Source: a virus. From it: a DNA stretch of 64,000 bases. The notes under the pieces were generated by a model. The model made no database searches, was not told where the DNA came from, and saw only the letters and a program-made list of their open reading frames with translations. Location: positions 15,790 through 79,789 of IMG/VR virus record IMGVR_UViG_3300001450_000023, one strand, 5' to 3'. Numbering within the stretch: the first letter of the stretch is position 1; each line of letters begins with the position of its first letter. This document shows, in pieces, positions 1 to 64,000 of this stretch. Made by a program: the position numbers and the translations under genes.

Positions 1-14
1 TTCCTGTATTTGCA

Positions 15-488
15 ATGTTTAAAAGTTCAGGTAGTTTATTCTTGGAAGGTAAAGAAATTATTTATCATCATTTATATGCAGATAACAGAGAACCTCTTAA
101 AAAGTCTTACAATATTATGTATAGTACTTTTTGTTATGGTATGAAAGCTAAATCATATAGAAATAAAGATGGTATAATTTTAATTAGAAAAGGTCTTGTT
201 ACAGATGAAAATTTTAATATTAAGATGGTTTTATGTTTTAAAGATTTTAAAAACATAGACAAGAATAATGTAACTATTAAAGACTTTATCTTAATTGTTA
301 ACAAACAGTATTTTAATTCTTTATTGTTTAAAAATTTTAATAAAAAAAACTGTTTTGAAGATATAGATATGTTGTTAACAGATAATGTAGAGGAGTATTG
401 TTTTAAATCTCCTAAAATTATTCCTAAATTTAAAGATATTGCTATAATGCAAGAATATTTAAATGATGTAAATAAATTATTATTATGA
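15..488 (+). CDS. hypothetical protein
   Basis: 157-aa ORF, ATGA overlap with next gene. Confidence 0.75.
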   Translation: MFKSSGSLFLEGKEIIYHHLYADNREPLKKSYNIMYSTFCYGMKAKSYRNKDGIILIRKGLVTDENFNIKMVLCFKDFKNIDKNNVTIKDFILIVNKQYFNSLLFKNFNKKNCFEDIDMLLTDNVEEYCFKSPKIIPKFKDIAIMQEYLNDVNKLLL

Positions 489-901
489 CAGAAAAGAAAA
501 AGAAGAAGAATTTAGGAAAGATTAACAGAAGAAAAGGGCATAATGCTGAAAGGCATTATGCTAATTGGTTTAAACAGTTAGGTTATAAATTATGCCAAAC
601 TTCTAGATATGGAAGTAGGTTATATGATGATTGTGGAATAGATTTAATAAATATTCCATTTCTAGTACAAGTGAAAGCAGGTAAGCAAAAAAATTTAAAT
701 ATTATATCTGAATTAAAGAATATAAAAGAAAAAGTTGCAGAAAACTTTCCAAAAGAATCTAGAGAACAAGAATTACCTAAAATGTTAATCCACAGAAAGG
801 ATGTAGGCAGAGGTAGGAAGAGAACTTCTTATGATGACATTATTACAATGACTGCTGAAGATTTTAAAATATTAATTAAATTAATTTCCAATGATAGTTA
901 G
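485..901 (+). CDS. Holliday junction resolvase (Hjc-like PD-(D/E)XK)
   Basis: NRRKGHNAER...GIDL...LVQVKAG, typical of Hjc-type phage resolvases. Confidence 0.75.
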   Translation: MTEKKKKKNLGKINRRKGHNAERHYANWFKQLGYKLCQTSRYGSRLYDDCGIDLINIPFLVQVKAGKQKNLNIISELKNIKEKVAENFPKESREQELPKMLIHRKDVGRGRKRTSYDDIITMTAEDFKILIKLISNDS

Positions 902-1985: not shown

Positions 1986-2535
1986 TATTTATATGAATAA
2001 AACATGGAAATATTTATTTCCCATGTTAAAAGATTACAATGATGATGTGTTAATGGCTTTATTAAATTCATTGCACATCTCAGCAACAGGTATTGGAGAT
2101 TTTCTCATAGAGAAAAATTTAGAACAGCATATTTTTATACTTATAAATCAAAGAAGTAATCCAAGACTATTTAGTAATTTAATTAATTACATAATAGATA
2201 AAGATTTTTTTGAAGATGACTATGTATTTGATAATATAGCAACAGGTTGTTTACATATGGTAATTTTAAAGTTACCTAAAAATGTTGTGCCTACTTTTTT
2301 TGATGGAAGATATTCTCATTTATATACTTATACAGAAAGAAAGAAGTTTTTTAGGAGAGAAGATAAAGCTTATAGTGTTATTAACAAACATTATAACTAT
2401 AAACTTGAATTTATAAATCAACTGAAAGAAGAATTTGGAACTGTATTAGAAATAGATGAGATAGGAAATAGAGAATTAGATTTGCCTCCAAAGAAAGAAG
2501 AAGAAATATTTAATTATAAGAAAGAGCCTGAGTAG
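1966..2535 (+). CDS. hypothetical phage protein
   Basis: 189-aa ORF overlapping the upstream gene and followed by a hairpin. Confidence 0.75.
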   Translation: MKIQVNNIYMNKTWKYLFPMLKDYNDDVLMALLNSLHISATGIGDFLIEKNLEQHIFILINQRSNPRLFSNLINYIIDKDFFEDDYVFDNIATGCLHMVILKLPKNVVPTFFDGRYSHLYTYTERKKFFRREDKAYSVINKHYNYKLEFINQLKEEFGTVLEIDEIGNRELDLPPKKEEEIFNYKKEPE

Positions 2536-2545
2536 GCTCTTTCTT
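2521..2545 (+). terminator. intrinsic terminator
   Basis: AAAGAGCCT-gagt-AGGCTCTTT perfect hairpin at the gene end. Confidence 0.6.
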
Positions 2546-2568
2546 AACAATAATACAAATAAACAATT

Positions 2569-3018
2569 ATGAAAGCTATTAATAAAAGTACATGTTTAAA
2601 ACAAGAAATAAAAATTTCTGTAGATAAATTTGATAATGAAAATAATATTATCAATTCTTCAGAAGATATTTGTGATTATTTTAGAAATATCATTCCTGTA
2701 GATATTAATACACAGGAATGTTTTATTATTATTTATTTAGATAAGAAAAGTGATGTTATAGGTTATAATGTAAATTCAATAGGTGGAATTGATCAATCAA
2801 TTGTTGATGTAAGATTAATTTTTGCTGTTGCATTAAAATGTTTAGCAAGTGCTATAATATGTATTCACAATCATCCATCAGGTAATTTAAAACCTAGTAA
2901 AAGTGATGTTCAAGTAGAAAAACAAATTAAGAAAATTGCTGATTATCATAGCATTTCTTGTCTTGATTTTTTAATTGTAACAGAAAATGGGGATTACTCT
3001 TTTGAAGCAAATAAATAA
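2569..3018 (+). CDS. radC: RadC-like JAB/MPN domain protein
   Basis: E...HNHPSGNLKPSKSD intact JAB motif; LDFLIV tail. Confidence 0.9.
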   Translation: MKAINKSTCLKQEIKISVDKFDNENNIINSSEDICDYFRNIIPVDINTQECFIIIYLDKKSDVIGYNVNSIGGIDQSIVDVRLIFAVALKCLASAIICIHNHPSGNLKPSKSDVQVEKQIKKIADYHSISCLDFLIVTENGDYSFEANK

Positions 3019-3020
3019 TT

Positions 3021-3170
3021 ATGAATAAAAAAGAATGGAAAAGAATTTATAACACTATGGTTGAATGTAAACTGAAAGGTGCTTTTATTTCTCCTAAAGG
3101 ATTAATATATAAGACTCATCAAAAAGATTCAGTTTATTATTCAATCAAACAAATAAAAAACAAATTATGA
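3021..3170 (+). CDS. small hypothetical protein (49 aa, MNKKEWKRIY...)
   Basis: ORF read by eye; fills the gap exactly, ATGA overlap with 3167. Confidence 0.6.
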   Translation: MNKKEWKRIYNTMVECKLKGAFISPKGLIYKTHQKDSVYYSIKQIKNKL

Positions 3171-3499
3171 ATAACCTATTTGGAAAGTATCATTGTTTAA
3201 AAAATAAAATAAATAAAAATACTGGGTATGAAAATTGTTTATACAAACCAACAGTAGAAGAAAGATATTATATATATGGAATAATGAAAAAAAATGGCCA
3301 TCACAATAATATTTGGACTTTGCTAAAAGATGGTGATAAATTAACAGTTACACCAGGTTATAATGTATCTGCTACAAGAGTAGGACATTTTGTAACTTTA
3401 GAAAATAGAAAAAAGATATTAGATGAAAATAATGAATTTGAACTAACAGTTGATGAAAATATGATTTCTTTAATTTCAGATGAAACACTTAATAAATAA
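3167..3499 (+). CDS. hypothetical protein
   Basis: 110-aa ORF in operon. Confidence 0.7.
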   Translation: MNNLFGKYHCLKNKINKNTGYENCLYKPTVEERYYIYGIMKKNGHHNNIWTLLKDGDKLTVTPGYNVSATRVGHFVTLENRKKILDENNEFELTVDENMISLISDETLNK

Positions 3500-3502
3500 G
3501 AT

Positions 3503-3721
3503 ATGGGAAAAATGAAAAAAATATTTATGGAAAAAAGAGAAAAAGAATTAGAAGAAGATTTTCTTAAAGATCAATATAAATCTAATATATTATTTACTAG
3601 TACTGAGCATGATATATTAATAAATTTGATTGATAAAAAAATAAAAGAACTTTATGCATACCCTATGCTTTTATCTGAATTAGAGAATCTTAAAATAAAA
3701 ATAAATTTAAATACAAAATAA
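3503..3721 (+). CDS. hypothetical protein
   Basis: 72-aa ORF in operon. Confidence 0.65.
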   Translation: MGKMKKIFMEKREKELEEDFLKDQYKSNILFTSTEHDILINLIDKKIKELYAYPMLLSELENLKIKINLNTK

Positions 3722-3800
3722 CTTTTTATTATTATTTTATTTACCTATATTAGTAAAAGGTAAATAAAAGTTTTAAATTTTGTATAATAAGTTTTGATTT

Positions 3801-3832
3801 AAAAGGGTAGATTTTATCTACCCTTTTTTTTT
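3801..3832 (+). terminator. intrinsic terminator
   Basis: AAAAGGGTAGAT-ttt-ATCTACCCTTTT plus T run. Confidence 0.8.
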
Positions 3833-3887
3833 ATACTATTTCTAATATAACTGATAATGAAAGTATAATTAATTACTAATTAACTTT

Positions 3888-3913
3888 AAAGGTGCTAATA
3901 GCACCTTTTTTTT
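3888..3913 (+). terminator. intrinsic terminator
   Basis: AAAGGTGCT-aat-AGCACCTTT plus T run. Confidence 0.75.
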
Positions 3914-3925
3914 AAATTAAAAATA

Positions 3926-4102
3926 ATGTCAGGTAAAAAAAAGAAAATATATATATTTACTAAAATAGTAAAGAGATCAAATTCAGAATACACAATATCT
4001 TTACAGAAAAAATTTAAAGATGTTACTGAAGCAATTTCTTATGCTAAAGATAATAATTATACTATCATTGATAATGTAGGTAAGGTTATTAATAAAAATT
4101 GA
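3926..4102 (+). CDS. small hypothetical protein (58 aa, MSGKKKKIYIF...)
   Basis: ORF read by eye, A-rich leader, ends 4 nt before next gene. Confidence 0.6.
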   Translation: MSGKKKKIYIFTKIVKRSNSEYTISLQKKFKDVTEAISYAKDNNYTIIDNVGKVINKN

Positions 4103-4106
4103 GAAT

Positions 4107-4289
4107 ATGGAAAACAATGAAAACAATATAAAAATTGCAGAATCATGGGATGAACTAATTCCTGTATTAAAGAAGTGTTTAAAAGGTAAAAAAGAAAATA
4201 TTTTTGCTGATGCTTTAAATACAATGAATAAAAAAATAGTTCATAAAGCAATAATAGATTTTATGAAAACTGAAAAACTGAAAATATGA
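4107..4289 (+). CDS. small hypothetical protein
   Basis: 60-aa ORF in operon. Confidence 0.6.
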   Translation: MENNENNIKIAESWDELIPVLKKCLKGKKENIFADALNTMNKKIVHKAIIDFMKTEKLKI

Positions 4290-4537
4290 GTAAAGAAGAA
4301 ATAATAACTAAGATATGGGTAAATAATAACTGGAAAAATGTAGACCCAAATAAACCTCCTATTAGTTCTAGAGAACTAGATTCTTTTCTATTTTATAACA
4401 ATGCTCCAAAATGTTTTATGAAAACTAATGGTTATTGGTTTAAAATTAAAAAAGATGCTACTTTAATAAAAGTAGGTAGAGTTTTATATACATTATCATT
4501 ACAAGATTGGTTAAAAATTTCATTAAAAAATGAGTAA
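4286..4537 (+). CDS. hypothetical protein
   Basis: 83-aa ORF, ATGA overlap. Confidence 0.65.
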   Translation: MSKEEIITKIWVNNNWKNVDPNKPPISSRELDSFLFYNNAPKCFMKTNGYWFKIKKDATLIKVGRVLYTLSLQDWLKISLKNE

Positions 4538-4679
4538 AGAAGAAATAATAAAAGGTTTAATGATAAAATTAGCTGATGAAAATATTAATGTCACAGCTTT
4601 AGCTAAAAGAGTTGGTTATAAAAATTATAAAAAATTTGAAAAAGCTTTAGAAAAAGCATTTGAAATTATTGAAAACTGA
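4530..4679 (+). CDS. small HTH-like protein (49 aa)
   Basis: MSKEEIIKGLMIKLADENINVTALAKRVGYKNYKKFEKALEKAFEIIEN; resembles the AraC-type second HTH. Confidence 0.5.
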   Translation: MSKEEIIKGLMIKLADENINVTALAKRVGYKNYKKFEKALEKAFEIIEN

Positions 4680-4691
4680 AAAACTGTAAAT

Positions 4692-5519
4692 ATGAAAACT
4701 GAATTTAATCCAGGTGATACTATCACTTGGGAAATCAAAAAGAAAAGTAAATTAACAAACCTAATCCTATTAGCATTAATAGGATTATTTATTTATTGGT
4801 TTAGTATAGGATTTAAAGATAAAAATTATCCAATACTTGATCCATGTGAAACTGTCTATGAAGAAATACCTCAACTAATTTTTGTTGATAAATCTGATAC
4901 TGTTGTCACTAAAAAATATGACAATATAGGATTACCAACTTTTAGAAAATGGCTTACAAGTAATGAATGGAAAGGTAAGCATTTAAAAGATTCTTGTTCC
5001 AAAATGAAAAAATCATTTTCAAATTGGAAAGAAAATCATAAAAGAAGGTTTTTAAAAGAATGGAAAATTTGTGCTATTGAAGAAAGTAAAGTTTCAGGAA
5101 TTCCTGCTGGCATTATAGTGGCACAAGCAATGCTTGAGTCTAATTGGGGAATCTCTAGATTAGCTATAGAAGCTAATAATTTCTTTGGACACAAATACAA
5201 AAACAAAAGAAGCAATAAATATATAATTGCTGCTGATGATTCTCCTACAGATAAATTCACAGTCTATAAAAGTAGGTGGTGGTGTGTCAGAAAACATTCT
5301 AATATATTAAATGGCAGGTATGCTAAAAGGCTCAAAGGAAAAACACTTGAACATTGGTTAGAGGCCCTTTGTGGGGGAGTTACTGTACAAGAAAGTAAAG
5401 ATTTTGTCAAAAGTGGTGGTAAAGTTTATGCTACTAGTTGTATGACTAAACCTTGCTATGCAGAAAAACTTTTAAAAATAATTCTTGATTATAAATTATA
5501 TAATCAAGAAATTATTTAA
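4692..5519 (+). CDS. membrane-anchored GH73 glucosaminidase/muramidase (FlgJ-like)
   Basis: N-terminal TM helix; IVAQAMLESNWG.S.LA.EANNFFGHK and YAT motifs. Confidence 0.85.
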   Translation: MKTEFNPGDTITWEIKKKSKLTNLILLALIGLFIYWFSIGFKDKNYPILDPCETVYEEIPQLIFVDKSDTVVTKKYDNIGLPTFRKWLTSNEWKGKHLKDSCSKMKKSFSNWKENHKRRFLKEWKICAIEESKVSGIPAGIIVAQAMLESNWGISRLAIEANNFFGHKYKNKRSNKYIIAADDSPTDKFTVYKSRWWCVRKHSNILNGRYAKRLKGKTLEHWLEALCGGVTVQESKDFVKSGGKVYATSCMTKPCYAEKLLKIILDYKLYNQEII

Positions 5520-5547
5520 ATTTAAGCTGTAAAAATAAAACACTTTA

Positions 5548-5555
5548 TATATTTG
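5548..5555 (+). promoter_or_regulatory. Bacteroidota -7 promoter element (TAnnTTTG)
   Basis: TATATTTG 14 nt upstream of the 5570 ATG. Confidence 0.5.
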
Positions 5556-5569
5556 AAAAAAATCTAATT

Positions 5570-6400
5570 ATGAAACAGACAAAAACTTACCATGAAATCA
5601 CTCAAAAATTGAGAGATTTTTTTTTATCTAAAGGATTCATTGAAGTGCCTTCTCAAAGTAGAAAATCTATATTAGCTGCTTGTGAGAACCCACATTCTGT
5701 AGCAACATTTAAGTATGATAACTTAGTATGGCCTTTGCCACAAACTGGTCAAATGTGGTTGGAATATGAATTGTTAAAAAATCCTGATTGGAAAGGATGT
5801 TTCTGTGTATCAACTTCTTATAGAGATGAAAAAGAACCAATTCCTGGTAGACATGAAAAGATTTTTCCAATGTTTGAGTTTGAATCAAAAGGTGATTTTG
5901 AAGCTTTAAAGAAGTTAAACATTGAAATGGCAGAGTATTTAGGATTTGATACACCAGTACAAATTGATTATGATGAAACTTGTGAGAAATATGGTGGTGT
6001 TGAAATTCTTGAAGATGAGCATGAATCAAAAATGTGGAAAGAATTAGGACATTCTATATCACTAGAAACTTTCCCTATTAGAACTTCACCATTTTGGAAT
6101 ATGAAATATATTGGAGATGGTAAGTTTAACAAATGTGACATTATTCTATTTGGACAAGAAACATTTGGAACAGCAGAAAGAAGTTGTGATGCAAAGGAAA
6201 TGAGAGACTTCTTTTATTCTATCATGGAAGGAACTTACTGTGAAAAATTATTTGAACTGTTTGGTAAAGAAAGAGTAGAAGCTGAATTAGAAGAATTTTT
6301 AGCTAATGATTTCTTTCCAAGATTTGGAGGGGGCATTGGTTTAACAAGATTAGGGAGAGCATGGGAAATGCTTTCAGAAATTAAACATGAACTAGTATAA
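5570..6400 (+). CDS. class II aminoacyl-tRNA-synthetase paralog (AsnRS/AspRS catalytic core without anticodon domain; asparagine synthetase A-like)
   Basis: motif 1 LRDFFLSKGFIEV, LPQTGQ, motif 2 SYRDE..PGRH..IFPMFEFE, motif 3 GGGIGLTRL; only 276 aa. Confidence 0.85.
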   Translation: MKQTKTYHEITQKLRDFFLSKGFIEVPSQSRKSILAACENPHSVATFKYDNLVWPLPQTGQMWLEYELLKNPDWKGCFCVSTSYRDEKEPIPGRHEKIFPMFEFESKGDFEALKKLNIEMAEYLGFDTPVQIDYDETCEKYGGVEILEDEHESKMWKELGHSISLETFPIRTSPFWNMKYIGDGKFNKCDIILFGQETFGTAERSCDAKEMRDFFYSIMEGTYCEKLFELFGKERVEAELEEFLANDFFPRFGGGIGLTRLGRAWEMLSEIKHELV

Positions 6401-6411
6401 AAACTTAAATT

Positions 6412-6552
6412 ATGAAAATAAAAAGATTGTTATTGTTTTTATTAATATTAGCAATCTTTTTGTTATTTTCACATAAGATGTTTTTATATTTTATAATTAT
6501 ATACTTAATTATATGGGTTATTATAAATGCCTATAAAACAAACTATAAATAA
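6412..6552 (+). CDS. small membrane protein (46 aa, 2 hydrophobic segments)
   Basis: MKIKRLLLFLLILAIFLLFSHKMFLYFIIIYLIIWVII...; TAATG overlap with dut. Confidence 0.55.
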   Translation: MKIKRLLLFLLILAIFLLFSHKMFLYFIIIYLIIWVIINAYKTNYK

Positions 6553-7055
6553 TGATAATTACAATTAAAAAAGTAATAGACAATATAGAAATACCTAGAT
6601 ATGCAACAGAAGGTTCAGCAGGGTTTGATCTAAAAGCAATGAGAGTTATTGCTTTATATTCAGGAACTAAAAAAATAGATCTTGCTGAGAAAATGAATAA
6701 AACAATAAGTGAAGGCAAAATTACACTTAGACCTAATGAAAGAGCATTATTTGGAACTGGTTTAGCATTTGAAATACCAGAAGGTTTTCAGATGGAAATC
6801 AGAGATAAAAGTGGAATATCACTTAAAAAAGGCTTAAAAGTCTTTAATGCTCCAGGCACTATTGATAGTGATTATAGAGGAGAAGTTGGAATTATTTTAT
6901 ATAATTCTACTCCTTATCTTGCTACAGTCAACTTGGGAGAATATATTGCACAAGCTGTAATAACTCCTTATTTTAAAGTTGATTTTGTAGAAGCTGTTAA
7001 AACTACTGCTACTGAAAGAGGTAGTGGTGGCTATGGCAGTACAGGACTAAAATAA
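6552..7055 (+). CDS. dut: trimeric dUTPase
   Basis: SAGFDL, KSG, GTIDSDYRGE, IAQ, RGSGGYGSTG motifs. Confidence 0.97.
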   Translation: MIITIKKVIDNIEIPRYATEGSAGFDLKAMRVIALYSGTKKIDLAEKMNKTISEGKITLRPNERALFGTGLAFEIPEGFQMEIRDKSGISLKKGLKVFNAPGTIDSDYRGEVGIILYNSTPYLATVNLGEYIAQAVITPYFKVDFVEAVKTTATERGSGGYGSTGLK

Positions 7056-7080
7056 TTTCCGTTTTCATATTGTTTTGATT

Positions 7081-7117
7081 AGGGTAAGTAAGTCTTAACA
7101 GGCTTACTTACTTTTTT
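7081..7117. terminator. terminator between convergent gene blocks
   Basis: GTAAGTAAGTC-ttaaca-GGCTTACTTAC plus T run. Confidence 0.8.
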
Positions 7118-7120
7118 CCA

Positions 7121-10100
7121 TTACCTACTAGGATATTTTTTCAAAAGATATGCACTTATTTGATTTTTTATCTTTTTTCTTTCTTGAGCAGTACTTCTTC
7201 TATTTTTTCTTTCTTCAAATTTTGTAATTAGTTTATCAACCAGTTCTCCTTTTTCAGTAGCTCTTTTTTGTTTATTTTCTCTTTTTCTTGTTTGTTCTTC
7301 AGTTTCATCATAATATTTTAATTTTTTTGAAAAACTTTTTGGATTAAATATTCTTTCTGTTTGACTTCTTAATCCTAAACCAAAGGGTTCTCCTTTAACA
7401 ACATCTTTAAGTATTCCTGGAAGAAAAGTTTTACTTATAGCTACTCCAAGTTTACTTTCCCCGCGATATATACCTGTAGTATATATATCATTTCCCATAG
7501 ACCACTCTGTATATGCATCTCCTATTTTTCCAATATCCTTAATAGTTTTCCAAGCTGCAGGAACTGCAGCTTCACCTAAAGCTGTAATATTTGCATTATA
7601 TTGAGTTATAGTTTGAAGAGAAGCATCTATTTTATTCATTAAAAGATTATAAGCTTGTCTATCTGGATCATCTTCATCATCATCTTCACCCCAAAATGTA
7701 GCATGAACCATTATCATCATTGCTATTTTTTGTAATGCTAATGCTAATTCTGTCATATTAGCACTCATATTTTTAGCATCTCTTTCAGTAAAAGTTTCAC
7801 TTATTCTTGATTCATAATTTCTAGAACCAAATTTTGAAACAAGATTTGAATCAACTTTTGCTATTGAAAGTATTCTTTGAATAGGCATTCCAATAGATTT
7901 TTGTAATAATATCATACTAGAATATGCTAAATCTTGAATGTAACCAAATGGACCACTAAATGCTACTGGTTTTTTTTGTCCATGTTTTTGCATCCACTTA
8001 TTACTTATAGTATTAGTCCATAAAATTGATCCCCCAAGTCCAGCCATTGCTGCTGCACCTACACCTCCTGTCATAAATCCTAAACTACCAAAAAATAAAG
8101 CTGATGATGGTGCTGTAAAACTATGATATCTACCTTTATATCCTTTTATACCTCCTAATAAATTATCTTGAGGTACTGCAAATCTTGAATATAAAGCATT
8201 TGGTAACCAAGTTTTAAACATACTAAATGCTCTACCTATAACATTATCTTTTATAAGCATTCCCCTATTAGTATTATAGTTACCATGTGCTTGGTTAATA
8301 GCAGATTCTACTCTAGTTTTAAAAGTTCTAAACTCTATGGTATTCATATTTTCCCATGAGTTAATATTATCAGCTGTATTATAAGGAGGTCTTAAATTAC
8401 CTTTTTCATCCATAGCATCCCATACTGATGTTTCATTTTCTCCATTTACATCTGTTATTTTTTGTTCTAATAACATTGAAACAAATACTGGAGATTGAAT
8501 AACATACTCAGTTCTCCTATTTAATTCCATTGGATGTAAATTATCTAATATAGTTGAAAATTCAGATACATCAGATGATTTTTGAAGCTCATTAGCTGAA
8601 TCTTGTAAGATATCAACTTTCTTCATTAATTTTTTTAATTTATTACCATCTTTCCAAAATTGTGGACTTTGAGTGGCAAATGTTCTAGTTACAATACCTT
8701 TTGCTCTCCAATAATTTGCTTCAGAAAAATAATCACCTTGTGCAGCAAGAATTAAATTAGAAGCTTCTCCTTCAGTATAATTAGTTATAGAAGATGAAAC
8801 ATTCCAACCTAAATTTTTAGTCCTTATTGCTGAAAGAAGTCCATCTATTGTACTAGTTATTGTCCATTGTCTACCTAATGAATTTATTTTATCTTTATAT
8901 TCTTTTATTTTTTTAGGATCTTTTTCATCTGAAACTAATTTTGTAAGAGTTTCTTTTAATCTTTTTTCTTCTTGATTTAGTATTCTGTTAAATGTAGTTT
9001 TATCTCCATTTATTACTGCTTGTGTTTTTTGTAACCAATTTTTAGCAGATTTTTTATCATCACCAGTAAATTCATCAGTAAGATCAATACTTGCTTCTCT
9101 ATCAAAATTTAATAATACTACCCTATTATACCAATTTTGATATCTTGCTTTTGCATTTTTTCTTTCATCATCACTATTACTTTGTCTACCAGCAACTTTA
9201 GTTAATGAAGCATCTTTAATAGAATCATAATGAGATTTTAATAAATCTATAATAGGCTTACTATTAACTCTTGATCTATATTTAGCTCCTAATTCAGAAT
9301 ACATTTTTAATACTCTAGGTAAATCAAAAGATTTATTTTCAGCAATTTTGTGTTGAGCTGCTGATTTAAAAAATACTTTAGGTGAAAATGATTCTGGTAA
9401 TTTTGATTTAACTTTACTAAGTTCACCATTAGTTAAATTTAAATTATGTGCTAAAACTTCTAATGCAGTATCTTTTACTGAACTAAGTGCTATTTTTCCT
9501 GATGGCAATTTATCACCATTTCTTTCATATTCTTTTTTAAATAGCTCATATTCTGCATTTGCTATATTATTTATAGTAGTTAAATTTTGAGATAAAAATG
9601 AAGAGTTTACTTCATAATTAGTTTTACCTGTTATATAATTTATTTTAGCATGATTTATTTGATTTTCTATACCTACTGTAAAAATTTCTCCTAAATTTCG
9701 CCACATTGTTGTAGCACCTTTTAAAAATTTATCAAGAGGTCCAACAGATTCTGCTGTTATTTCATTAAATGCTTTTTTAAATGCAGGTATAGAATTTACA
9801 TTTAATTTATCTTGTATTTCAACAGGAAAACCTTCTTTAACTTCTTTAAGAATACTCATCATTTCTGTATAAAAATTATACAAATTTGTATTTCCATCAA
9901 TTTTGTTAAAATTAGCATCATAATAATCAGTTTTATTATCTGTATCTGATACTACATATTTTTTATTTTTTGTAGAAAGTTTTGCAGTATTTTTTCTAGG
10001 AATACTAATATTATATTCCATTCTAGGTAACATATCTATACCAAAAGTATTACCTACAGAATTTGAATATTCAATTGCAATGAATGGTGAATTTTGTATG

Positions 10101-52879: not shown

Positions 52880-55261
52880 TTACTTCTTTTTGTTTATCTT
52901 TTCTTGATCCATTTTCTTCTGATGTTCAAACTTTTCTTCAGCTAGTCTTTGCTTCCTTGCTTGGATCTCAGCATCCAACCCATGTTGTGCAACTTCTAAT
53001 ATATCAGGTTTACCATCTCTATCTATATCTTTATCTTCATTAAATCCCATAGAAAGTATTGTCTGTCTTTGTAAGTCAGCAGCAGCCTTTTTATCAGCTA
53101 AAATAATTTCTGTTTCTCTATCATATTCTTTTTCCATCTGTCTTGATTGTATTTGCTGCTGTTGCATTTGTTGATCCATTTCTTTCATTTGCATTTGTTG
53201 TTGTTGCATTTGTTCTCTTTTAGTATCTTCAGCAACTTTAAGCAAATCTTCAGCTTCTTGTAAACCATCTGATTTAACAATCTTAATAATGTCAGACATA
53301 TTAAACATTTGATTTTGCATACCAGCATGAGCCAATTGTTTAACCATTTCTTTAGCTTCATTTGCTTTAGAAGAAGAAGCAACATCAATACCATATGTAG
53401 AATTATATAATAATTGTGGATTCATTTCAAGCATTCCTATAGAAAGATCATCTAGTACATATCTTAACATTTTAGATTTTGTACCAGAATAAGCTTCTTT
53501 AGCTACATCTAATAATCTTCTTATACAATTTCTTTTAACATAATTATGCATTTCAAACATAGGCTCTAATATATTAGAAGCTTGTAAAATAGCTTCTCTT
53601 GTATTTCCTACATTTTGCTGAGTGTTTATTTGAGCTTCCATTTCTTTTGGAATACCTACAGCATCTCCTGCTTTTCTTTCTATATAATTAGCAAGGTTAA
53701 CATAGTTATTTATATCAGAAGCTAAAGACATATCTAAAACTCTATTTATCTGACTAATATCTGTATTTCTGTTACCTTCTTCATTTGGATTTACCCATGC
53801 TACTTTTGTAGCTTCAGCATAATAATGCCATTTTTTAATATCTATTCCAGCACTTTTAGGAATTGAGTTAATGTTCATCATTATAATCTTACCTTTATCT
53901 GATGCCATTAATAATTCAATTCTATACATAATAATATTATAATAATATTGATATGCTTTTAATCTATCTATTATAGATGTAGTGTTTGAATTTAAATTAT
54001 CATAAGCAACTCCTACATATGGTAATTTACATTCATGTAAATTATCCATATCTTTAAATTGCCCAATCATTGGTCCCATATTTAAATACATAGCTTCTGA
54101 TAATTTAACCTTATAACCTTCGTGTACTTCAGGAATCCATTTCCATTTTAATTCAAGATCTCCAAACTCTTTAGACATCTTATAATTTTCTTCTACTATT
54201 TTTTCTTGAACTTCACCATTAGGATCAATATAAGTTAAAAAGCCTATTTTTCTAAGACCTTTCCATACACAATGTAAAACTCTAATAGTATCATCACTAT
54301 CAGTATCACTTTCAGTAAAATTCCAAAAACCATCACTCATACTACTTACACCTTTACCATAAGCAGAATAAATATCATCTATTTGAGATTGTTTCAATTC
54401 ATCTCCAAAAATATTAATTATTTGTGATGGTGTTAATCTATATTCACAAACTGCCCATTCTCCATCTTCTATAAATTCTATGTCTGGAGATTTATCATAA
54501 TCAAAATATAAAGGATTAACTACATCCATTACAGGAATACCATTTTCTATACCTATGTGATATATTTCTTCACCCGCTATACAAGAATGCTTAAAACCTT
54601 TATTAAACTTTCTTTTAAGATCACATTTGACAGTTAAATATTTAAGCAATTGTTCAGCAAGTGCTTCAGCAGGATCTTGATGCTTTCTAGCCATGTATTT
54701 TTTAATCTCAGGAGGTGTCATTGCCTGAGTCTGTTGTTGTATTTGTTGTTGCAACTGCGTTATCTGCTCTTCATTAAGTTCTTGACCTTGAGTTTGCTGC
54801 ATAGCTTGTTGTTGAACTTGCATTTGTATTGGATCCATTATTTGTTTAATAACATATTCCTTATACAAATCAAATTCTTTTTGCTCTATCCTATTAGTAG
54901 CTTCATCATTAATTGCATATACTGTCCAAGAAAAAGGTCTTTTCTCTTCCATACCCATTAATGCTTTAATCTTACCTGATATAATATCTCTATTAGTAAG
55001 ATCTGCAGGAAGTTCTCCTGATTCTGCACCAAAAGGTTTACAAACATATTCAAAGTCTGATAAGTTAACTATGTTATTGTATAAATCATAATTAACCTTT
55101 TTTCTCTTAAAGGAACTTACTCCTCCATCAAATGATGTTGAAGTATTGTATAAAGACCTGACATCTAATTTATCTATTTGATCTTTATAATACTGTCTTG
55201 AGTTTTTGTTCTTTTGAAACTGTGTAACTCTTTGTTTAGTACTAAAATTGTTTTCTGACAT
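52880..55261 (-). CDS. portal protein
   Basis: 793 aa; NYDLYN, II..KI..L.G.E..RPF, CKLPYVG, LK.YQ..YNI..., next to the terminase. Confidence 0.9.
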   Translation of the reverse strand: MSENNFSTKQRVTQFQKNKNSRQYYKDQIDKLDVRSLYNTSTSFDGGVSSFKRKKVNYDLYNNIVNLSDFEYVCKPFGAESGELPADLTNRDIISGKIKALMGMEEKRPFSWTVYAINDEATNRIEQKEFDLYKEYVIKQIMDPIQMQVQQQAMQQTQGQELNEEQITQLQQQIQQQTQAMTPPEIKKYMARKHQDPAEALAEQLLKYLTVKCDLKRKFNKGFKHSCIAGEEIYHIGIENGIPVMDVVNPLYFDYDKSPDIEFIEDGEWAVCEYRLTPSQIINIFGDELKQSQIDDIYSAYGKGVSSMSDGFWNFTESDTDSDDTIRVLHCVWKGLRKIGFLTYIDPNGEVQEKIVEENYKMSKEFGDLELKWKWIPEVHEGYKVKLSEAMYLNMGPMIGQFKDMDNLHECKLPYVGVAYDNLNSNTTSIIDRLKAYQYYYNIIMYRIELLMASDKGKIIMMNINSIPKSAGIDIKKWHYYAEATKVAWVNPNEEGNRNTDISQINRVLDMSLASDINNYVNLANYIERKAGDAVGIPKEMEAQINTQQNVGNTREAILQASNILEPMFEMHNYVKRNCIRRLLDVAKEAYSGTKSKMLRYVLDDLSIGMLEMNPQLLYNSTYGIDVASSSKANEAKEMVKQLAHAGMQNQMFNMSDIIKIVKSDGLQEAEDLLKVAEDTKREQMQQQQMQMKEMDQQMQQQQIQSRQMEKEYDRETEIILADKKAAADLQRQTILSMGFNEDKDIDRDGKPDILEVAQHGLDAEIQARKQRLAEEKFEHQKKMDQEKINKKK

Positions 55262-55267
55262 TTTATT

Positions 55268-57388
55268 TTATTTTTTAAAAAGAAATTTATGAAACCCAAG
55301 TAAATCAGACAAATTTCCATTTATTTCATCTCCGTATTCCTTATCTAATTCTTCTTCTTCTATTTGAAACATTAGCATCATGAATGCCATTACTCTATCA
55401 AAGTTACCTTTTCTATTGTAATTAATCAACTCTTCCAGTAATCCTGTATCGTAAATTGTTTCTAAATTTAATATTTTATTACCATTTTCATCAATATCCC
55501 TCTCAGTCAATAGCCACCTTTTTATATATTTTTCTCCTGCATCTTTTAATTGCTTGTTCATATGAATACCATATATCCTTGCAACTTTAGAGTTTTTTAC
55601 ATTCTTAGATATAACAGCATTTGGCTGAACAGCTAACAAATGTAATAATTTATGATTCATGAAATAACTTTTAACGGAGGTTACTTCATTTTCATGCATT
55701 ATTTCTGCATTATAAAATTCTGCTATCATAGCAGCTAATCTATTAAAATCATCAGTAGTATTTGGTCTACCAACATAATTTGCAACTATAGTATCTCTAG
55801 TGTAAGAAAACTTATGGTTACCTTTATATACATAAAAAGCACCTAAAGAAGTTCCTCCACTTTGATCTTGTCTATATGGGTCATATCCTATTTTATACAA
55901 TCCTCTCGGTGGATCTGATATAGGTCCTTCAAAAATAACTACACATCCTTTTATATCTGCAATCTTTGGTTTATAATCCCATAAAGGTTGCAACTTATCT
56001 TGCAAGTCAGGTCTTGCTATTATTTTACCCTCTTCTTTCAATAATGTTACAGGAGTTCCCCTTTTTATATTTAAATTTTCTCTCATAACCTTATTATAGT
56101 GGTTTCTCAGCTCTACAACTGGAAAATCATTTCTACTTACAGTTAAAAAAGCTTCTCCTGGACAAGTTGGATATTCTTGATTATGTTGATTTAAAGTATT
56201 AGTGCCACTAGAATTTTTTATAATTTTGTTTCTAGTTTCTTCTTCTTTTTCCAATGCCCCTTTCTTATCTGAGTTTCCACTATCATCATAGAATCCTTCC
56301 ATATTCCAATACACAGGATGAAAAAAACCACAACTAGAGTTTTCTGCATCTTTATCCCACATATTTACAAAAGGCATTAAATCAAACAGTTCAGGTTTAT
56401 AAAACATTTCTGCAAAATCTTTAGTTCCACTTTTCATATCCCCACCTGTACCAAAGATTATAATCTGACCAGTAGTATAACTACCAGCTTCAAGTGCTGG
56501 TTTAGTTGCCATGTATGCATCTTTCAAATTAGGAAATGCACCTGCCTCTTCAAACAATACTAACTTAGCATCTTTACCCCTTGCAGCATCAGGATTATCT
56601 TTAAATGTTAATGCAGTAATTTCTGATTTAAATCCTTTTTCTATATTATTCTCTTTAAAGGATGCCTTCTTATGATGTATCTTATCTACATAATCTCTAC
56701 TCTTTTTCCAAGCAGTATGTTCATCAATGTGTGATATATAAGCATTGACCATTGACATAATTCCTTTTGGATATAAATATTCTTTTAAAAAAGCTCCTGC
56801 TATATTTAAAGAATTTCTATACAAAGAATAATTATTTACTAGTAAAGCAGCATTCTTAAAGGAATATCCTTTCCGTCTACTTTTACCAACAATCATATGT
56901 TTACCACCTTGTAAATTATCTTTACTAACTTTTAGTTCTAATTTTAAAGAGTTGAAAGCTTTTATTAGGTTCTTTTCATTCTTATCATTAGAATTATAAA
57001 ATGGAATATTTATATTTAACATTCCATTATATGCTATATCTTTTGCCCAATAGTAATTATAATCTCCATCCCAGAAATCTGGCATGTCTTGTATCTTAGC
57101 TGCCACATTACTATATGCAGATTTTAAATCTACTTTCATAATAGGATAGAAATTCAAATATGCATAATGATCTCCAGTTATCTTTACATCACCTACTGTA
57201 TACCCTTCTTTACATCTTTTAGTTTGCTCATCCCAATATTCATAATAACCAGGAGAACCTATAGGATCTGCACAGTAATAGCCATATTTAGAAAAATGTT
57301 TAGCCTCTTCTCTAAATACTTCAGTATTAATCCAATGTCCTTTTGGATTTCTAACAGCAGCTAATTTTCCTTGTGCATAACCTTCCAT
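55268..57388 (-). CDS. terL: terminase large subunit
   Basis: ITGDHY.YLNF, GKSRRKGYS, LFEEAG, FGTGG, GYDPY, GNFDRV. Confidence 0.95.
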   Translation of the reverse strand: MEGYAQGKLAAVRNPKGHWINTEVFREEAKHFSKYGYYCADPIGSPGYYEYWDEQTKRCKEGYTVGDVKITGDHYAYLNFYPIMKVDLKSAYSNVAAKIQDMPDFWDGDYNYYWAKDIAYNGMLNINIPFYNSNDKNEKNLIKAFNSLKLELKVSKDNLQGGKHMIVGKSRRKGYSFKNAALLVNNYSLYRNSLNIAGAFLKEYLYPKGIMSMVNAYISHIDEHTAWKKSRDYVDKIHHKKASFKENNIEKGFKSEITALTFKDNPDAARGKDAKLVLFEEAGAFPNLKDAYMATKPALEAGSYTTGQIIIFGTGGDMKSGTKDFAEMFYKPELFDLMPFVNMWDKDAENSSCGFFHPVYWNMEGFYDDSGNSDKKGALEKEEETRNKIIKNSSGTNTLNQHNQEYPTCPGEAFLTVSRNDFPVVELRNHYNKVMRENLNIKRGTPVTLLKEEGKIIARPDLQDKLQPLWDYKPKIADIKGCVVIFEGPISDPPRGLYKIGYDPYRQDQSGGTSLGAFYVYKGNHKFSYTRDTIVANYVGRPNTTDDFNRLAAMIAEFYNAEIMHENEVTSVKSYFMNHKLLHLLAVQPNAVISKNVKNSKVARIYGIHMNKQLKDAGEKYIKRWLLTERDIDENGNKILNLETIYDTGLLEELINYNRKGNFDRVMAFMMLMFQIEEEELDKEYGDEINGNLSDLLGFHKFLFKK

Positions 57389-59259: not shown

Positions 59260-59272
59260 TTAAAATTTAAAA

Positions 59273-59468
59273 GAGGAAAGATGGATGAAAAATTATAAGT
59301 GTGCGATGACCTAAATTTATCCTATTTGTTAAATAATTAAATTAAAATTAAAATATACCATCTTTCCTCATATTTTTAAAAAAGATAGGGAAATAACCAA
59401 CCAATGTTATTTAATAATTTACCATAACTTTAAATGTTAATAAATAAAATTAAAATATACCCTATCTT
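59273..59468 (-). ncRNA. two tandem stem-closed large-loop elements (candidate small RNAs)
   Basis: inverted repeats 59273-84/59358-69 and 59382-90/59460-68; shared 17-mer; T runs after each stem on the minus strand. Confidence 0.5.
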
Positions 59469-59474
59469 ATTATT

Positions 59475-62273: not shown

Positions 62274-62285
62274 GTTTGCTTAATA

Positions 62286-62293
62286 CAAATTTA
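62286..62293 (-). promoter_or_regulatory. Bacteroidota -7 promoter element TAAATTTG at the head of the late operon
   Basis: 12 nt upstream of the first minus-strand gene. Confidence 0.55.
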
Positions 62294-62615
62294 TAATTTA
62301 ATTTTGAAACTTAAAAGTATAAGTGAAAATAAAAAGCTATTATTTATTATATATACTATATATAATAGAAAAAATATAAAAATTATTTTCTTAAACAAAT
62401 ATAATTTAATTTATTTTTAAAATAATTTTATAACCCCTATTACAACTAGTTAAAGTAGTTTTTTATATAACCCCAAAAATTCACTCTTACTCAACCTACC
62501 TTACATCAAAGCCCCAGGCTTTGCTTTTTCCCCACTAACCCCCCTATCAACATTTCTTTTTCCCTTTAAGTAGCCTTGTATAAATATTTATACATTAATC
62601 TTAAATCTTTACATC

Positions 62616-62966
62616 ATGCTAATTGTTTCAAGTGTTAATCTTAGAAAGAAAGATGGTATTGTTTCAGACAAATGTTTAATCATCACATTATCAACAGGTC
62701 CTGCTCTGCCTGGCCTTACAGGTGAAAAGTATTTCTACTCTGCTCCAAAATACAAATCCAAGACTATTGAGGAGTATAGAGAAGAGCTGGTTGATAGAAA
62801 ACTTCCATATAATTCTATTAAAGAATTATGCAAAGAAACTAAGATGGAAGAATTTGATAATTGGTTACATTCAACTAAATATTTAAATGAAAATCCTGAA
62901 TACAGGAAGAGATTAGTTGAGGAAGCCAAAAAGAGAGAAGAAGAAATGAATGACTTACCATTCTAA
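62616..62966 (+). CDS. hypothetical early protein with SSB-like acidic C-terminal tail (NDLPF)
   Basis: 116-aa ORF followed by a terminator. Confidence 0.7.
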   Translation: MLIVSSVNLRKKDGIVSDKCLIITLSTGPALPGLTGEKYFYSAPKYKSKTIEEYREELVDRKLPYNSIKELCKETKMEEFDNWLHSTKYLNENPEYRKRLVEEAKKREEEMNDLPF

Positions 62967-62970
62967 ACTA

Positions 62971-63003
62971 AAGAGAGAGCTTTATGCTCTCTCTTATTTT
63001 TTT
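62971..63003 (+). terminator. intrinsic terminator
   Basis: AAGAGAGAGC-tttat-GCTCTCTCTT plus T run. Confidence 0.85.
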
Positions 63004-63073
63004 ATTTAACTTCTCTATTTCCCTTTATTAATATTGGGATAGAATTATTTTATTTAATTAAATATATAATATT

Positions 63074-63199
63074 ATGTGCTGGAAAAGATGGTTAATACAT
63101 TATTGCCCAAAAGAGTGGAGCAATACAGATGCTTTGATATTCATCAGTATAGATTGTCCTGAAGTTACTCTTCAGGATATAGAAAGAGAAAGACCTTAA
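63074..63199 (+). CDS. small early protein (41 aa, MCWKRWLIHYCP...)
   Basis: ORF framed by the upstream motif and a downstream terminator. Confidence 0.5.
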   Translation: MCWKRWLIHYCPKEWSNTDALIFISIDCPEVTLQDIERERP

Positions 63200-63217
63200 C
63201 AGGTCTTTTCTTTTTTC
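63181..63217 (+). terminator. intrinsic terminator
   Basis: AAAGACC-ttaaca-GGTCTTT plus T-rich tail. Confidence 0.75.
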
Positions 63218-63284
63218 TTAAATACTTTTCTATTTCCCTTAATTAATACTGGACAATATTGTCATTAAAATAAATCTTGATATT

Positions 63285-63428
63285 ATGCCTGAAGATAAAA
63301 GTAATGAAAGTAAAGCAAGAACTCAATACATTGTAGATTCAATTAAGAATACTACAGTAAGTGATGATAAAGTGCTTTACATTGTAGATAAGAGTGGTAA
63401 AACTCTTATTAAAGTATATAATGATTAA
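63285..63428 (+). CDS. small early protein (47 aa, MPEDKSNESK...)
   Basis: ORF downstream of the third motif copy. Confidence 0.6.
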   Translation: MPEDKSNESKARTQYIVDSIKNTTVSDDKVLYIVDKSGKTLIKVYND

Positions 63429-63537
63429 AGTTTTGTTAACTTTGTAGTGAGAACACTTTGTAGCACTAAATACCCACTATTTACTGTGCCATAATCAAAG
63501 TGTTCTTTCTTCTTAATATAATAAAATAGCTTAAAAT

Positions 63538-63653
63538 AAAACTATTTGCAGTTGATTATGTCCTGAGCTAGTGTGGATATAATCTGTAAAGCTACTGTCA
63601 CTTAGATGACAGCTTGAAAACTCTGATAAAGGAGTGGCACTGCATTTAGTTTT
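63538..63653 (+). ncRNA. candidate multibranch structured RNA
   Basis: closing stem plus three internal hairpins in a GC-elevated intergenic stretch. Confidence 0.5.
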
Positions 63654-63700
63654 TTTCTAATATAATAAATCAATTTAATTTACCTTATAAACAATATGAT

Positions 63701-63883
63701 ATGATACCATTTATTATTTTATGTGCAATATGTTGCACACTTATAGGCACAGGGAGTGCCTTAATTTATTATGCTTTTAAAAAGCATGTAAACCTACAAG
63801 TTATTAGTCTAATTTCCATAGCAATTATGTTAAGTATAATTGTTAGTGGATTAATTGTTCACCAACAAAATGGACTAATATGA
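63701..63883 (+). CDS. small membrane protein (2 TM)
   Basis: 60 aa, two hydrophobic helices. Confidence 0.6.
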   Translation: MIPFIILCAICCTLIGTGSALIYYAFKKHVNLQVISLISIAIMLSIIVSGLIVHQQNGLI

Positions 63884-64000
63884 AATATTTAATTATATTG
63901 TGTGTATTACTAACAAGTTGTAATACATATAAAAACTGCAACTTTGGAGAGGTAAAACCTTTTCCAAAGTTGGAAGAGTTCAAAGCTTTTGAAACCATAG
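63880..64000 (+). CDS. lipoprotein (truncated by window end)
   Basis: MKYLIILCVLLTSC lipobox; ATGA overlap; open to the window end. Confidence 0.6.
   Translation, partial: MKYLIILCVLLTSCNTYKNCNFGEVKPFPKLEEFKAFETI

What the first reader, a model, noticed from the sequence alone, without database searches (positions are those of the whole stretch)
63538..63653. Four-way-junction structured RNA candidate in the early region
Seen: closing stem AAAACTA..TGCAGT / ACTGCA..TAGTTTT enclosing three hairpins: GATTATGTCC/GGATATAATC, CTGTCA/TGACAG and ACTCT/GGAGT. AGCT recurs in loop 1 and the junctions, a possible pseudoknot. The stretch is GC-rich relative to its flanks and has no ORF. It has no tRNA T-loop and no match to a riboswitch or ribozyme consensus I recognise. 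Inference: an undescribed ncRNA, such as a tRNA-like decoy, ribozyme or protein sponge expressed early.
Basis: partly seen in the sequence, partly recalled or inferred. Interest (0 to 1): 0.7.

Follow-up and report, generated by a model that had tools for sequence, protein, structure and literature searches.

The report
Orphan four-armed RNA fold in phage
A 116-base gene-free stretch among the probable early genes of an uncultured marine crAss-like phage does fold into a tight four-armed RNA shape that matches no known RNA family, but no other sequence carries it and no RNA reads could be laid, so it remains an unproven candidate.

Summary
MFE is -36.8 kcal/mol, z -4.4, and 0 of 200 shuffles fold as well. 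All main helices have probability 0.9 or more, also in a 330-nt context. No frame is open, GC is 36% against 11-13% in the immediate flanks, and there is no tRNA or Rfam match even at E<=10.

It is less exceptional than it looked. The 79.8-kb genome has 84 loci with an equal or better z-score, against 3-8 per strand in shuffled genomes. Seven of them tile this 1.1-kb stretch.

No homolog was found in any of these:
- 85 loci around related phages
- 43 whole related crAss-like records
- phi14:2
- IMG/VR, JGI metagenome and GTDB pattern scans
- 151 Bacteroidota genomes

Covariation is therefore untestable. Expression is untested because the one read-laying run was lost.

The element lacks the promoter-like motif that heads the neighbouring mini-gene cassettes. 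I read it as a structured module inside a + strand early transcript, with a boundary or stability role and possibly a stable fragment (confidence 0.4). A stand-alone small RNA (0.25) and a functionless recombination relic (0.2) remain open. The closest precedent is the abundant early intergenic RNAs of phi14:2.

The parts
63538..63653 (+). Four-way-junction fold. It has closing stem P1a (63538-44 / 63647-53), a 2x2 UU/UU internal loop, P1b (63547-52 / 63639-44), and three hairpins.
   Evidence: MFE -36.8, z -4.43; helix probabilities are 0.9 or more in 116-, 201- and 331-nt contexts.
63554..63584 (+). Hairpin P2: a 10-bp stem with an internal G.U and an 11-nt loop TGAGCTAGTGT. Its arm UGUCC/GGAUA, including the G.U, recurs in the hairpin at 63155-63181.
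   Evidence: GTCCTGA occurs only at 63156 and 63560 in the 80-kb genome.
63589..63615 (+). Hairpin P3: core CTGTCA/TGACAG with a 6-nt loop. The lower stem AAGCT/AGCTT is only half populated.
63620..63635 (+). Hairpin P4: ACTCT/GGAGT, closed by U.G, with loop GATAAA.
63650..63656 (+). Run of seven T. Four are in the 3' strand of P1a and three follow it. It could be a weak terminator tail; an A-rich run mirrors it upstream at 63533-63541.
   Evidence: The terminator scan did not call it.
63446..63510 (+). Hairpin A: a long-range 12-bp stem (GAGAACACTTTG / CAAAGTGTTCTT) around a small inner hairpin, followed by TTTCTTCTT. It is the other structured piece of the same 272-nt gene-free gap.
   Evidence: z -5.2.
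63510..63525 (+). Left copy of the direct repeat TTCTTAATATAATAAA, which contains TATAAT at 63517-22.
   Evidence: (D3). The 13-mer YTAATATAATAAA occurs only twice in the genome, and both copies flank the fold.
63654..63669 (+). Right copy of the direct repeat (TTTCTAATATAATAAA), 35 nt before the ATG of the 60-aa membrane ORF.
63437..63444 (+). TAACTTTG fits the Bacteroidota -7 box TAnnTTTG, just before hairpin A. This is weak evidence, because the pattern occurs at chance frequency genome-wide.
   Evidence: 58 (+) and 74 (-) hits. My estimate from the base composition is about 68 per strand by chance.
63223..63252 (+). Nearest upstream copy of the promoter-like motif (ACTTnnCTnTTTCCCTTnAnnAATryTGG). 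It is the probable start of the transcript that contains the fold.
   Evidence: (D1, D2). There are five copies, each directly after a canonical terminator.
63285..63428 (+). Upstream 47-aa mini-ORF with no relatives.
63701..63883 (+). Downstream 60-aa membrane ORF. Its stop overlaps the start of a lipoprotein-like ORF (63880 onward) that continues at the contig start.

Best explanation
The fold is a self-contained structured RNA module inside a + strand early transcript of a marine crAss-like phage. It is not a separate gene.

Proposed course of events:
- Transcription starts at the promoter-like motif at 63223.
- It runs through the 47-aa mini-ORF, hairpin A and the four-way junction, and continues into the membrane and lipoprotein genes.
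- It ends at the next canonical terminator, which lies just before the next motif copy.

Proposed action, in cis:
- The module is closed by a 13-bp stem with a T-run at its 3' side.
- It marks a transcript boundary by attenuating read-through and blocking exonucleases.
- This sets the relative levels of the upstream mini-gene RNA and the downstream membrane/lipoprotein mRNA.
- Because both of its ends are locked in a helix, the roughly 120-nt piece may outlive the mRNA and accumulate, as the early intergenic RNAs of phi14:2 do.

Shown: the fold, its thermodynamic definition, the absence of coding, the absence of any known family, and the cassette architecture around it.

Inferred: the strand, early timing, co-transcription, and the boundary or stability role.
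For: Fold and non-coding status.

The gap 63429-63700 is one of only five ORF-free gaps of 150 nt or more in a genome that is 96% covered by ORFs. The space is therefore likely kept for a reason.

The promoter-like motif has five copies, each directly after a canonical short GC-rich terminator. Four of them lie 55-67 nt before an ATG. None precedes the fold, and no canonical terminator separates it from its neighbours. It therefore sits inside the unit that starts at 63223.

Seven strongly structured + strand segments tile 62861-63983, about ten times the genome average and about 90 times the shuffled expectation.

Strand: all neighbouring genes are on +. The + fold is 5.8 kcal/mol better than the - fold, and the G.U inside P2 becomes an A.C mismatch on the - strand.

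Precedent: in crAss-like phage phi14:2, two early intergenic regions are transcribed above most genes from the first time point and do not decay (bioRxiv 10.1101/2020.03.07.982082).
Against: - There is no expression data and no homolog, so no covariation.
- Simple boundary elements are usually single hairpins; a three-hairpin junction is more than that role needs.
- P1a, next to the T-run, is almost all A-U, which is poor for intrinsic termination.
- Whether the virion RNA polymerase or the host polymerase reads this region is unknown.
- Equal z-scores are common inside this genome's coding regions, so the z-score alone does not mark a dedicated RNA element.
- The minus-strand fold scores as well by z, and P3 gains two G.U pairs on that strand.
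Confidence: 0.4

Rival explanations
1. It is a stand-alone, trans-acting small RNA gene. A primary transcript of about 125 nt starts a few bases after the TATAAT at 63517-22 and ends at the T-run. Alternatively, a transcript of about 205 nt starts after the TAACTTTG box at 63437 and includes hairpin A. It would act on a protein or RNA target, for example as a decoy or sponge.
For: - The fold is compact, closed at both ends and GC-enriched, and sits between extremely AT-rich flanks.
- A-rich and T-rich runs bracket it.
- The same 13- to 16-nt TATAAT-containing repeat precedes both the fold and the next gene.
- A TAnnTTTG match lies upstream.
- phi14:2 makes abundant, persistent early non-coding RNAs, one of which I find to be a tmRNA.
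Against: - No -35 or -33 partner goes with either candidate -10 or -7 box.
- TAnnTTTG occurs at chance frequency.
- The element lacks the promoter-like motif used by every neighbouring cassette.
- No extended complementarity of loop 2 to the phage genome was found.
- There is no homolog anywhere.
Confidence: 0.25
2. It is a functionless relic. Either a cassette or MITE-like piece was inserted by recombination at the short AT-rich repeat, or it is the decayed remnant of a former gene. Its inverted repeats happen to fold well.
For: - Terminal inverted repeats (P1) lie next to direct repeats at 63510-25 and 63654-69. Removing one repeat plus the fold would join hairpin A directly to the leader of the 60-aa gene.
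- The whole early region 62274-64000 and all its mini-ORFs are unique to this phage in every collection searched, as expected of fast-turnover DNA.
- T4-type phages shuffle such cassettes through repeated promoter-terminator motifs, the PeSLs (PMC2839356, PMC4122927).
Against: - There is a single copy in the genome and none in IMG/VR, JGI or GTDB pattern scans.
- The repeat is only 13-16 nt of A/T in 11-13% GC flanks. My rough estimate of its chance probability is about 0.1.
- The left repeat is 12 nt from the stem and the right repeat 0-3 nt, unlike a target-site duplication.
- Three independent internal hairpins with near-perfect pairing and raised GC are not what neutral decay leaves behind.
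Confidence: 0.2
3. It is a DNA-level element, such as a replication origin, a packaging signal or a protein-binding cruciform, rather than an RNA.
For: Both strands fold about equally well by z-score, as any inverted-repeat DNA would.
Against: - G.U pairs are needed in P2 and P4, which would be mismatches in DNA.
- There are no iterons or AT-rich unwinding repeats beyond the ordinary flanks.
- Several short unrelated hairpins inside one closing stem are not a typical cruciform.
- It lies inside a transcribed-looking gene block.
Confidence: 0.05
4. It is a minus-strand RNA: the same helices read from the opposite strand.
For: The minus-strand z is -4.57 to -5.25. P3 extends by two G.U pairs on that strand.
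Against: - No minus-strand gene or promoter-like element lies nearby; the minus block starts at 62273.
- MFE is 5.8 kcal/mol weaker.
- P2 acquires an A.C mismatch and P4 loses a pair.
Confidence: 0.05
5. It is a very divergent member of a known family, such as a tRNA-like element or a self-cleaving ribozyme.
For: It has four-way-junction topology and a 7-bp outer stem. Loop 2 loosely recalls a D-loop (my own reading of the sequence).
Against: - ARAGORN finds nothing at default settings and only junk at relaxed settings.
- There is no Rfam hit at E<=10.
- There is no T-loop, no 7-nt anticodon loop, and no internal loops in the arms.
Confidence: 0.03

Closest known systems
Early long intergenic non-coding RNAs of Cellulophaga crAss-like phage phi14:2 (g004-g005 and g005-g006 junctions; Drobysheva et al., bioRxiv 10.1101/2020.03.07.982082)
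   Same: Both come from a marine crAss-like phage. Both are gene-free structured stretches among small genes in the block read in the early direction. In phi14:2 these stretches are transcribed very strongly from the first time point and persist.
   Different: There is no sequence or covariance-model similarity. The phi14:2 regions are 0.7 kb each, and one holds a tmRNA. This element is 116 nt, and its expression is untested.
T4 small stable RNAs rnaC and rnaD (species 1 and 2) in the tRNA cluster (from my own knowledge, not tested)
   Same: These are small, stable, compactly folded phage RNAs of unknown function, cut out of a longer early transcript.
   Different: The T4 RNAs sit among tRNA genes and are processed with them. 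There is no tRNA gene in this window, and no similarity was tested because no sequence was at hand.
Intercistronic processing and stability structures of phage early operons, for example the T7 RNase III sites (from my own knowledge)
   Same: These are structured RNAs between early cistrons that define mRNA ends. P1 stacked on P2 would give about 23 bp of helix with an internal loop.
   Different: Those sites are single irregular hairpins, not four-way junctions. Cleavage was not tested here.
PeSL promoter-terminator cassettes of T4-type phages (PMC2839356, PMC4122927)
   Same: The surrounding region is built from a repeated terminator-plus-promoter-like motif flanking orphan mini-genes. That architecture mediates cassette shuffling in T4-type phages.
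   Different: The motif has a different sequence and comes from a different phage family. The fold itself is not bounded by the motif, only by a short AT-rich direct repeat. No shuffled relatives are available to show mobility.
tRNA
   Same: Four-way junction with a 7-bp outermost helix.
   Different: It has an extra 6-bp helix, a 10-bp first arm with an 11-nt loop, 6-nt loops in the other arms, and no T-loop. Neither ARAGORN nor Rfam calls it.

Membership tests
tRNA / tRNA-like | Cloverleaf with a 7-nt anticodon loop and a T-loop, detectable by ARAGORN or Rfam RF00005 | tested here: not met
   no call at default settings. Relaxed thresholds give only scattered junk calls that do not match the fold.
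Any Rfam 15 family (riboswitches, ribozymes, sRNAs, IMES, Flavo-1, GOLLD, ROOL and others) | Covariance-model score at or near the gathering threshold | tested here: not met
   no hit in the whole window at gathering score; no hit at E<=10 in 63400-63750 with permissive filters.
Four-way-junction self-cleaving ribozymes (hairpin, twister-sister) | Conserved internal loops in the arms that form the active site | tested here: not met
   The arms P2, P3 core and P4 are uninterrupted helices, and no Rfam ribozyme model matches. Cleavage itself is not testable here.
Intrinsic terminator | A GC-rich stem directly followed by a U-run | tested here: inconclusive
   A run of seven T overlaps and follows P1a, but the adjacent 7 bp have one G-C pair and enclose about 100 nt. 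The consensus scan did not call it, although it called three canonical terminators nearby.
phi14:2-type early intergenic ncRNA | Position in the early-direction gene block | tested here: met
   The fold lies 1.3 kb into the + strand block that diverges from the virion-gene block. 'Early' is by analogy only.
phi14:2-type early intergenic ncRNA | High, early and persistent transcription | not testable with these tools
No reads were laid.
phi14:2-type early intergenic ncRNA | Sequence or structure similarity | tested here: not met
   model R1 with filters off gives no significant match in phi14:2 positions 1-8000.
MITE-like mobile element | Terminal inverted repeats | tested here: met
   P1a plus P1b form 13 bp of terminal inverted repeat.
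MITE-like mobile element | Target-site duplication directly abutting the ends | tested here: inconclusive
   Direct repeats lie at 63510-25 and 63654-69, but they are offset by 12 nt on the left and 0-3 nt on the right.
MITE-like mobile element | Multiple copies in the same or other genomes | tested here: not met
   There is one copy in the genome. None was found in IMG/VR, JGI metagenomes or GTDB genomes by pattern, or in any locus by covariance model.
Conserved structured RNA (general criterion) | Compensatory base changes among homologs | not testable with these tools

The most novel reading that the evidence does not exclude
It is a stand-alone early phage small RNA with a new four-way-junction fold, made from its own promoter and ended at the T-run. 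It would act in trans, for instance as a protein decoy against a host defence or RNA-processing enzyme. That would make it one of a wider, uncatalogued set of swappable structured-RNA modules in marine crAss-like phages.
Probability: 0.2. Interest if true: 0.6.

Novelty: new member of a known kind. Interest (0 to 1): 0.3.

Why it matters
crAss-like phages are among the most abundant viruses known. In the one marine model studied (phi14:2), the most abundant early transcripts are non-coding RNAs of unknown function. If this compact fold is a working RNA, it would be a small, tractable example of what such early phage RNAs look like and how they are packaged into cassette-like early regions. As it stands, it is a single-sequence prediction with no evolutionary or expression support. 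Its main value is as a pointer to an RNA-rich, hyper-structured early region that deserves RNA-seq.

Tried and rejected
Homolog hunts, all empty:
- blastn against GenBank phages.
- An exact loop-1 19-mer in IMG/VR.
- blastn and nhmmer of the element, the 272-nt gap and the whole early region against 86 related loci.
- Single-sequence covariance model R1 against:
  - 27 TerL-anchored loci;
  - 58 loci around homologs of the 121-aa anchor gene;
  - 43 whole related virus records, 12 of them 90% or more complete;
  - phi14:2;
  - the contig start (the best hit is an ordinary hairpin);
  - 93 IMG/VR loci that matched loop or junction patterns;
  - 11 GTDB loci;
  - 29 loci matching the promoter-like motif;
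  - 3 plus 151 Bacteroidota genomes.
- A loop-plus-junction pattern in JGI metagenomes and GTDB genomes gave 0 matches.
- The neighbouring 116-aa ORF has no relatives in IMG/VR or JGI.
- The mini-ORFs have none in any locus.

Tools lost:
- Sequencing runs X2-X9 (marine DNA, 5-8% of words) and X10 (oligo-dT RNA, 5%) were therefore never laid and count as no evidence.

Ideas rejected:
- tRNA-like identity.
- AGCU pseudoknot or kissing dimer: only 4 nt, and sterically unlikely.
- Paralogy of the element with neighbouring cassettes: local alignments are no better than shuffles.
- Homology with a second closing-stem-plus-three-hairpin fold at L193:198-296: about 50% identity, z only -3.15, and R1 is silent.
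- A host-type TAnnTTTG promoter as evidence: the pattern is at chance frequency.
- Relatives cannot be drawn for a virus record.

Full report
**Context.** The window is bases 15790-79789 of a 79,789-base IMG/VR virus record. PHROGs profiles identify a crAss-type portal (52880-55261) and large terminase (55268-57388), plus lysis genes, all on the minus strand. Next to them lie giant ORFs of up to 4,919 aa. At 62273 the minus-strand block ends and a + strand block of very small ORFs begins. The best DNA holder among public runs is a marine metagenome, which may be the source sample. The last 44 bases of the contig match its first 44 at 39 positions, and the lipoprotein-like ORF that is cut at 64000 continues at the contig start. 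The genome is therefore probably closed or nearly so, and the + strand block runs on into the contig start.

**The observation.** The 116 bases at 63538-63653 fold as described. A 7-bp outer stem, a symmetric UU/UU loop and a 6-bp inner stem enclose three hairpins of 10, about 6 and 5 bp.
- MFE is -36.8 kcal/mol against -23.3 +/- 3.0 for dinucleotide shuffles, z -4.43, with none of 200 shuffles as good.
- The same structure is the MFE and the centroid when 276 or 331 nt are folded. Pair probabilities are 0.9-1.0 for every helix except the lower part of the middle hairpin, at about 0.5.
- All six frames are closed by TAA, TAG and TGA, so stop-codon reassignment does not rescue an ORF.
- GC is 36% against 11-13% in the immediately adjacent 27-47 nt.
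- ARAGORN finds no tRNA or tmRNA.
- Rfam 15 gives nothing at gathering score in the window and nothing at E<=10 in 63400-63750.

**How unusual the fold is.** It is less unusual than a single z-score suggests.
- An RNALfold z-scan of the whole genome finds 45 (+) and 39 (-) non-overlapping loci of 60 nt or more with z<=-4.5. The element has z -4.68 and E -37.3.
- Four block-wise dinucleotide shuffles of the genome give 3-8 such loci per strand, and 0-1 that also reach -36.8 kcal/mol. Ten + strand loci do so in the real genome.
- The fold is therefore very probably not a chance product. However, strong local structure is a general property of this genome, and most + strand loci lie inside + strand ORFs.
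- Seven of the 45 + strand loci tile 62861-63983 almost without a gap. The neighbouring stretch 63060-63215 reaches z -6.0.
- The 272-nt gap that holds the element is one of only five ORF-free gaps of 150 nt or more in a genome that is 96% covered by ORFs of 40 aa or more.

**Architecture around it.** A promoter-like motif, ACTTnnCTnTTTCCCTTnAnnAATryTGG, occurs five times on the + strand and never on the minus strand. The copies are at 62549, 63008, 63223 and contig positions 440 and 1678.
- Each copy directly follows a canonical short GC-rich terminator. Four of the five lie 55-67 nt before an ATG.
- The motif is absent from IMG/VR in this form.
- These terminator-motif-mini-gene cassettes recall the PeSL cassettes of T4-type phages (PMC2839356, PMC4122927).
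- The four-way junction is not preceded by the motif. It is not separated from its neighbours by a canonical terminator either.
- Between the 47-aa ORF (63285-63428) and the 60-aa membrane ORF (63701-63883) lie two atypical structures. One is a long-range hairpin (63446-63510). The other is the junction.
- Each is followed by a nearly identical AT-rich tail, TTCTTAATATAATAAA or TTTCTAATATAATAAA. The 13-mer occurs only at these two places in the genome.
- The tail contains TATAAT but has no -35 partner. A TAnnTTTG match at 63437 is no more than chance predicts.
- The simplest reading is that the junction is an internal module of the transcript that starts at 63223.

**Strand.** Both strands give similar z-scores. 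The + strand is favoured for three reasons. Every neighbouring gene is on it. Its fold is 5.8 kcal/mol better. The G.U inside P2 becomes an A.C mismatch on the minus strand. Against this, P3 gains two terminal G.U pairs on the minus strand. I put the + strand at about 75% or more.

**Relatives.** I found none.
- The nearest IMG/VR relatives by terminase (87% and 79% identity) do not extend to this region.
- Relatives at 45-66% identity of the 121-aa anchor gene have completely different DNA here. None of the mini-ORFs has a relative.
- A covariance model built from the single sequence found nothing in 85 related loci, 43 whole related records, phi14:2, or 154 Bacteroidota genomes.
- Loop and junction patterns found only chance matches in IMG/VR and GTDB, and none in JGI metagenomes.
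- Closer relatives do exist in ENA and Logan, with anchor proteins 86-97% identical.
- The one read-laying run was lost to a filter outside the region of interest.

**Precedent.** In the marine crAss-like phage phi14:2, two intergenic regions in the early block are transcribed above most genes from the first time point and do not decline. The authors call them long non-coding RNAs of unknown function. In the RefSeq record, the region between g004 and g006 is 1.7 kb with no retained CDS. Part of it (4031-4502) is a tmRNA by ARAGORN, with tag GSSVQKLAMVA, and by Rfam RF00023 (46 bits against a cut-off of 47, E 6e-16). The text held here does not say this. Earlier notes of this scan on other crAss-like genomes describe conserved, cassette-like structured RNA modules in early regions. 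I treat these as leads only. A sequence look-up found no look-alike of this element among them.

**Interpretation.**
- My best reading (0.4) is a structured module inside the + strand early transcript. It would act in cis as a boundary or stability element and might persist as a stable fragment.
- A stand-alone trans-acting small RNA (0.25) fits the compact closed shape and the bracketing A-rich and T-rich runs. It lacks a credible promoter.
- A functionless insertion or relic (0.2) fits the flanking direct repeat, the terminal inverted repeat and the orphan status. It fits poorly with three near-perfect internal helices and with the single copy.
- A DNA-level element, a minus-strand RNA, or a divergent known family together get about 0.13.

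**Verdict.** This is a real, well-defined and uncatalogued fold, but it rests on a single sequence. Because the finding lacks evolutionary and expression support and is not an outlier in its own genome, I score interest at 0.3.

Noticed in passing
window 63957-64000 and L193:1-44 (contig start): The contig's last 44 bases match its first 44 at 39 positions, including a 23-base exact run. The lipoprotein-like ORF cut at 64000 continues in L193:2-187. The 'linear, 88% complete' record is probably a closed or nearly closed genome that broke at a polymorphic site.
   Followed up: partly
window 62549, 63008, 63223; L193:440, 1678: There are five + strand copies of ACTTnnCTnTTTCCCTTnAnnAATryTGG. Each directly follows a canonical terminator, and four lie 55-67 nt before an ATG. 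This is a candidate early (virion RNA polymerase?) promoter that builds PeSL-like cassettes. It is not found in IMG/VR.
   Followed up: partly
window 63060-63215: The cassette holding the 41-aa ORF folds with z -6.0 into three consecutive hairpins. Its middle hairpin shares the arm UGUCCUGA...GGAUAUA, including the G.U, with P2 of the junction. GTCCTGA occurs only at these two places in 80 kb. The 41-aa ORF may not be a real gene.
   Followed up: partly
L193:198-296 (contig start, + strand): After the lipoprotein gene there is a second fold of the same outline: an 8-bp closing stem around three hairpins, followed by a T-rich run. It shares GAAAACTCT with the element. It has only z -3.15 and no significant alignment or covariance-model score.
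   Followed up: partly
L193:1281-1765: A 485-nt stretch after the 261-aa ORF has only short doubtful ORFs, several strong hairpins and two terminators (z -3.5 for 400 nt). It is another candidate non-coding RNA region of the early block.
   Followed up: no
L088 (phi14:2, NC_021806) 4031-4502: One of the two 'long non-coding RNA' regions of phi14:2 contains a tmRNA gene. ARAGORN gives the tag GSSVQKLAMVA, and Rfam RF00023 scores 46 bits against a cut-off of 47, E 6e-16. T-arm-like GGTTCGAATCC strings also occur at about 1825 in another gene-free stretch.
   Followed up: partly
whole genome G000: Local RNA structure is strongly in excess: 45 (+) and 39 (-) loci with z<=-4.5, against 3-8 per strand in shuffled genomes. 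On the + strand the excess is concentrated in + strand coding regions of the replication block and in the early region.
   Followed up: partly
window 62420-62570: The divergent control region is unusually C-rich on the + strand for a 28% GC genome. It has repeated ATAACCCC (62430, 62467) and TTTTTCCC (62526, 62558) motifs and one terminator at 62507-62523.
   Followed up: no
window 63701-64000 plus L193:2-187: A 60-aa two-helix membrane ORF overlaps (ATGA) the start of a lipoprotein-like ORF with lipobox LTSC. The pair resembles early superinfection-exclusion or receptor-masking genes of other phages (from my own knowledge).
   Followed up: no
window 59260-59474 and 3722-3925: These are two of the other ORF-free gaps of 150 nt or more in this compact genome.
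   Followed up: no
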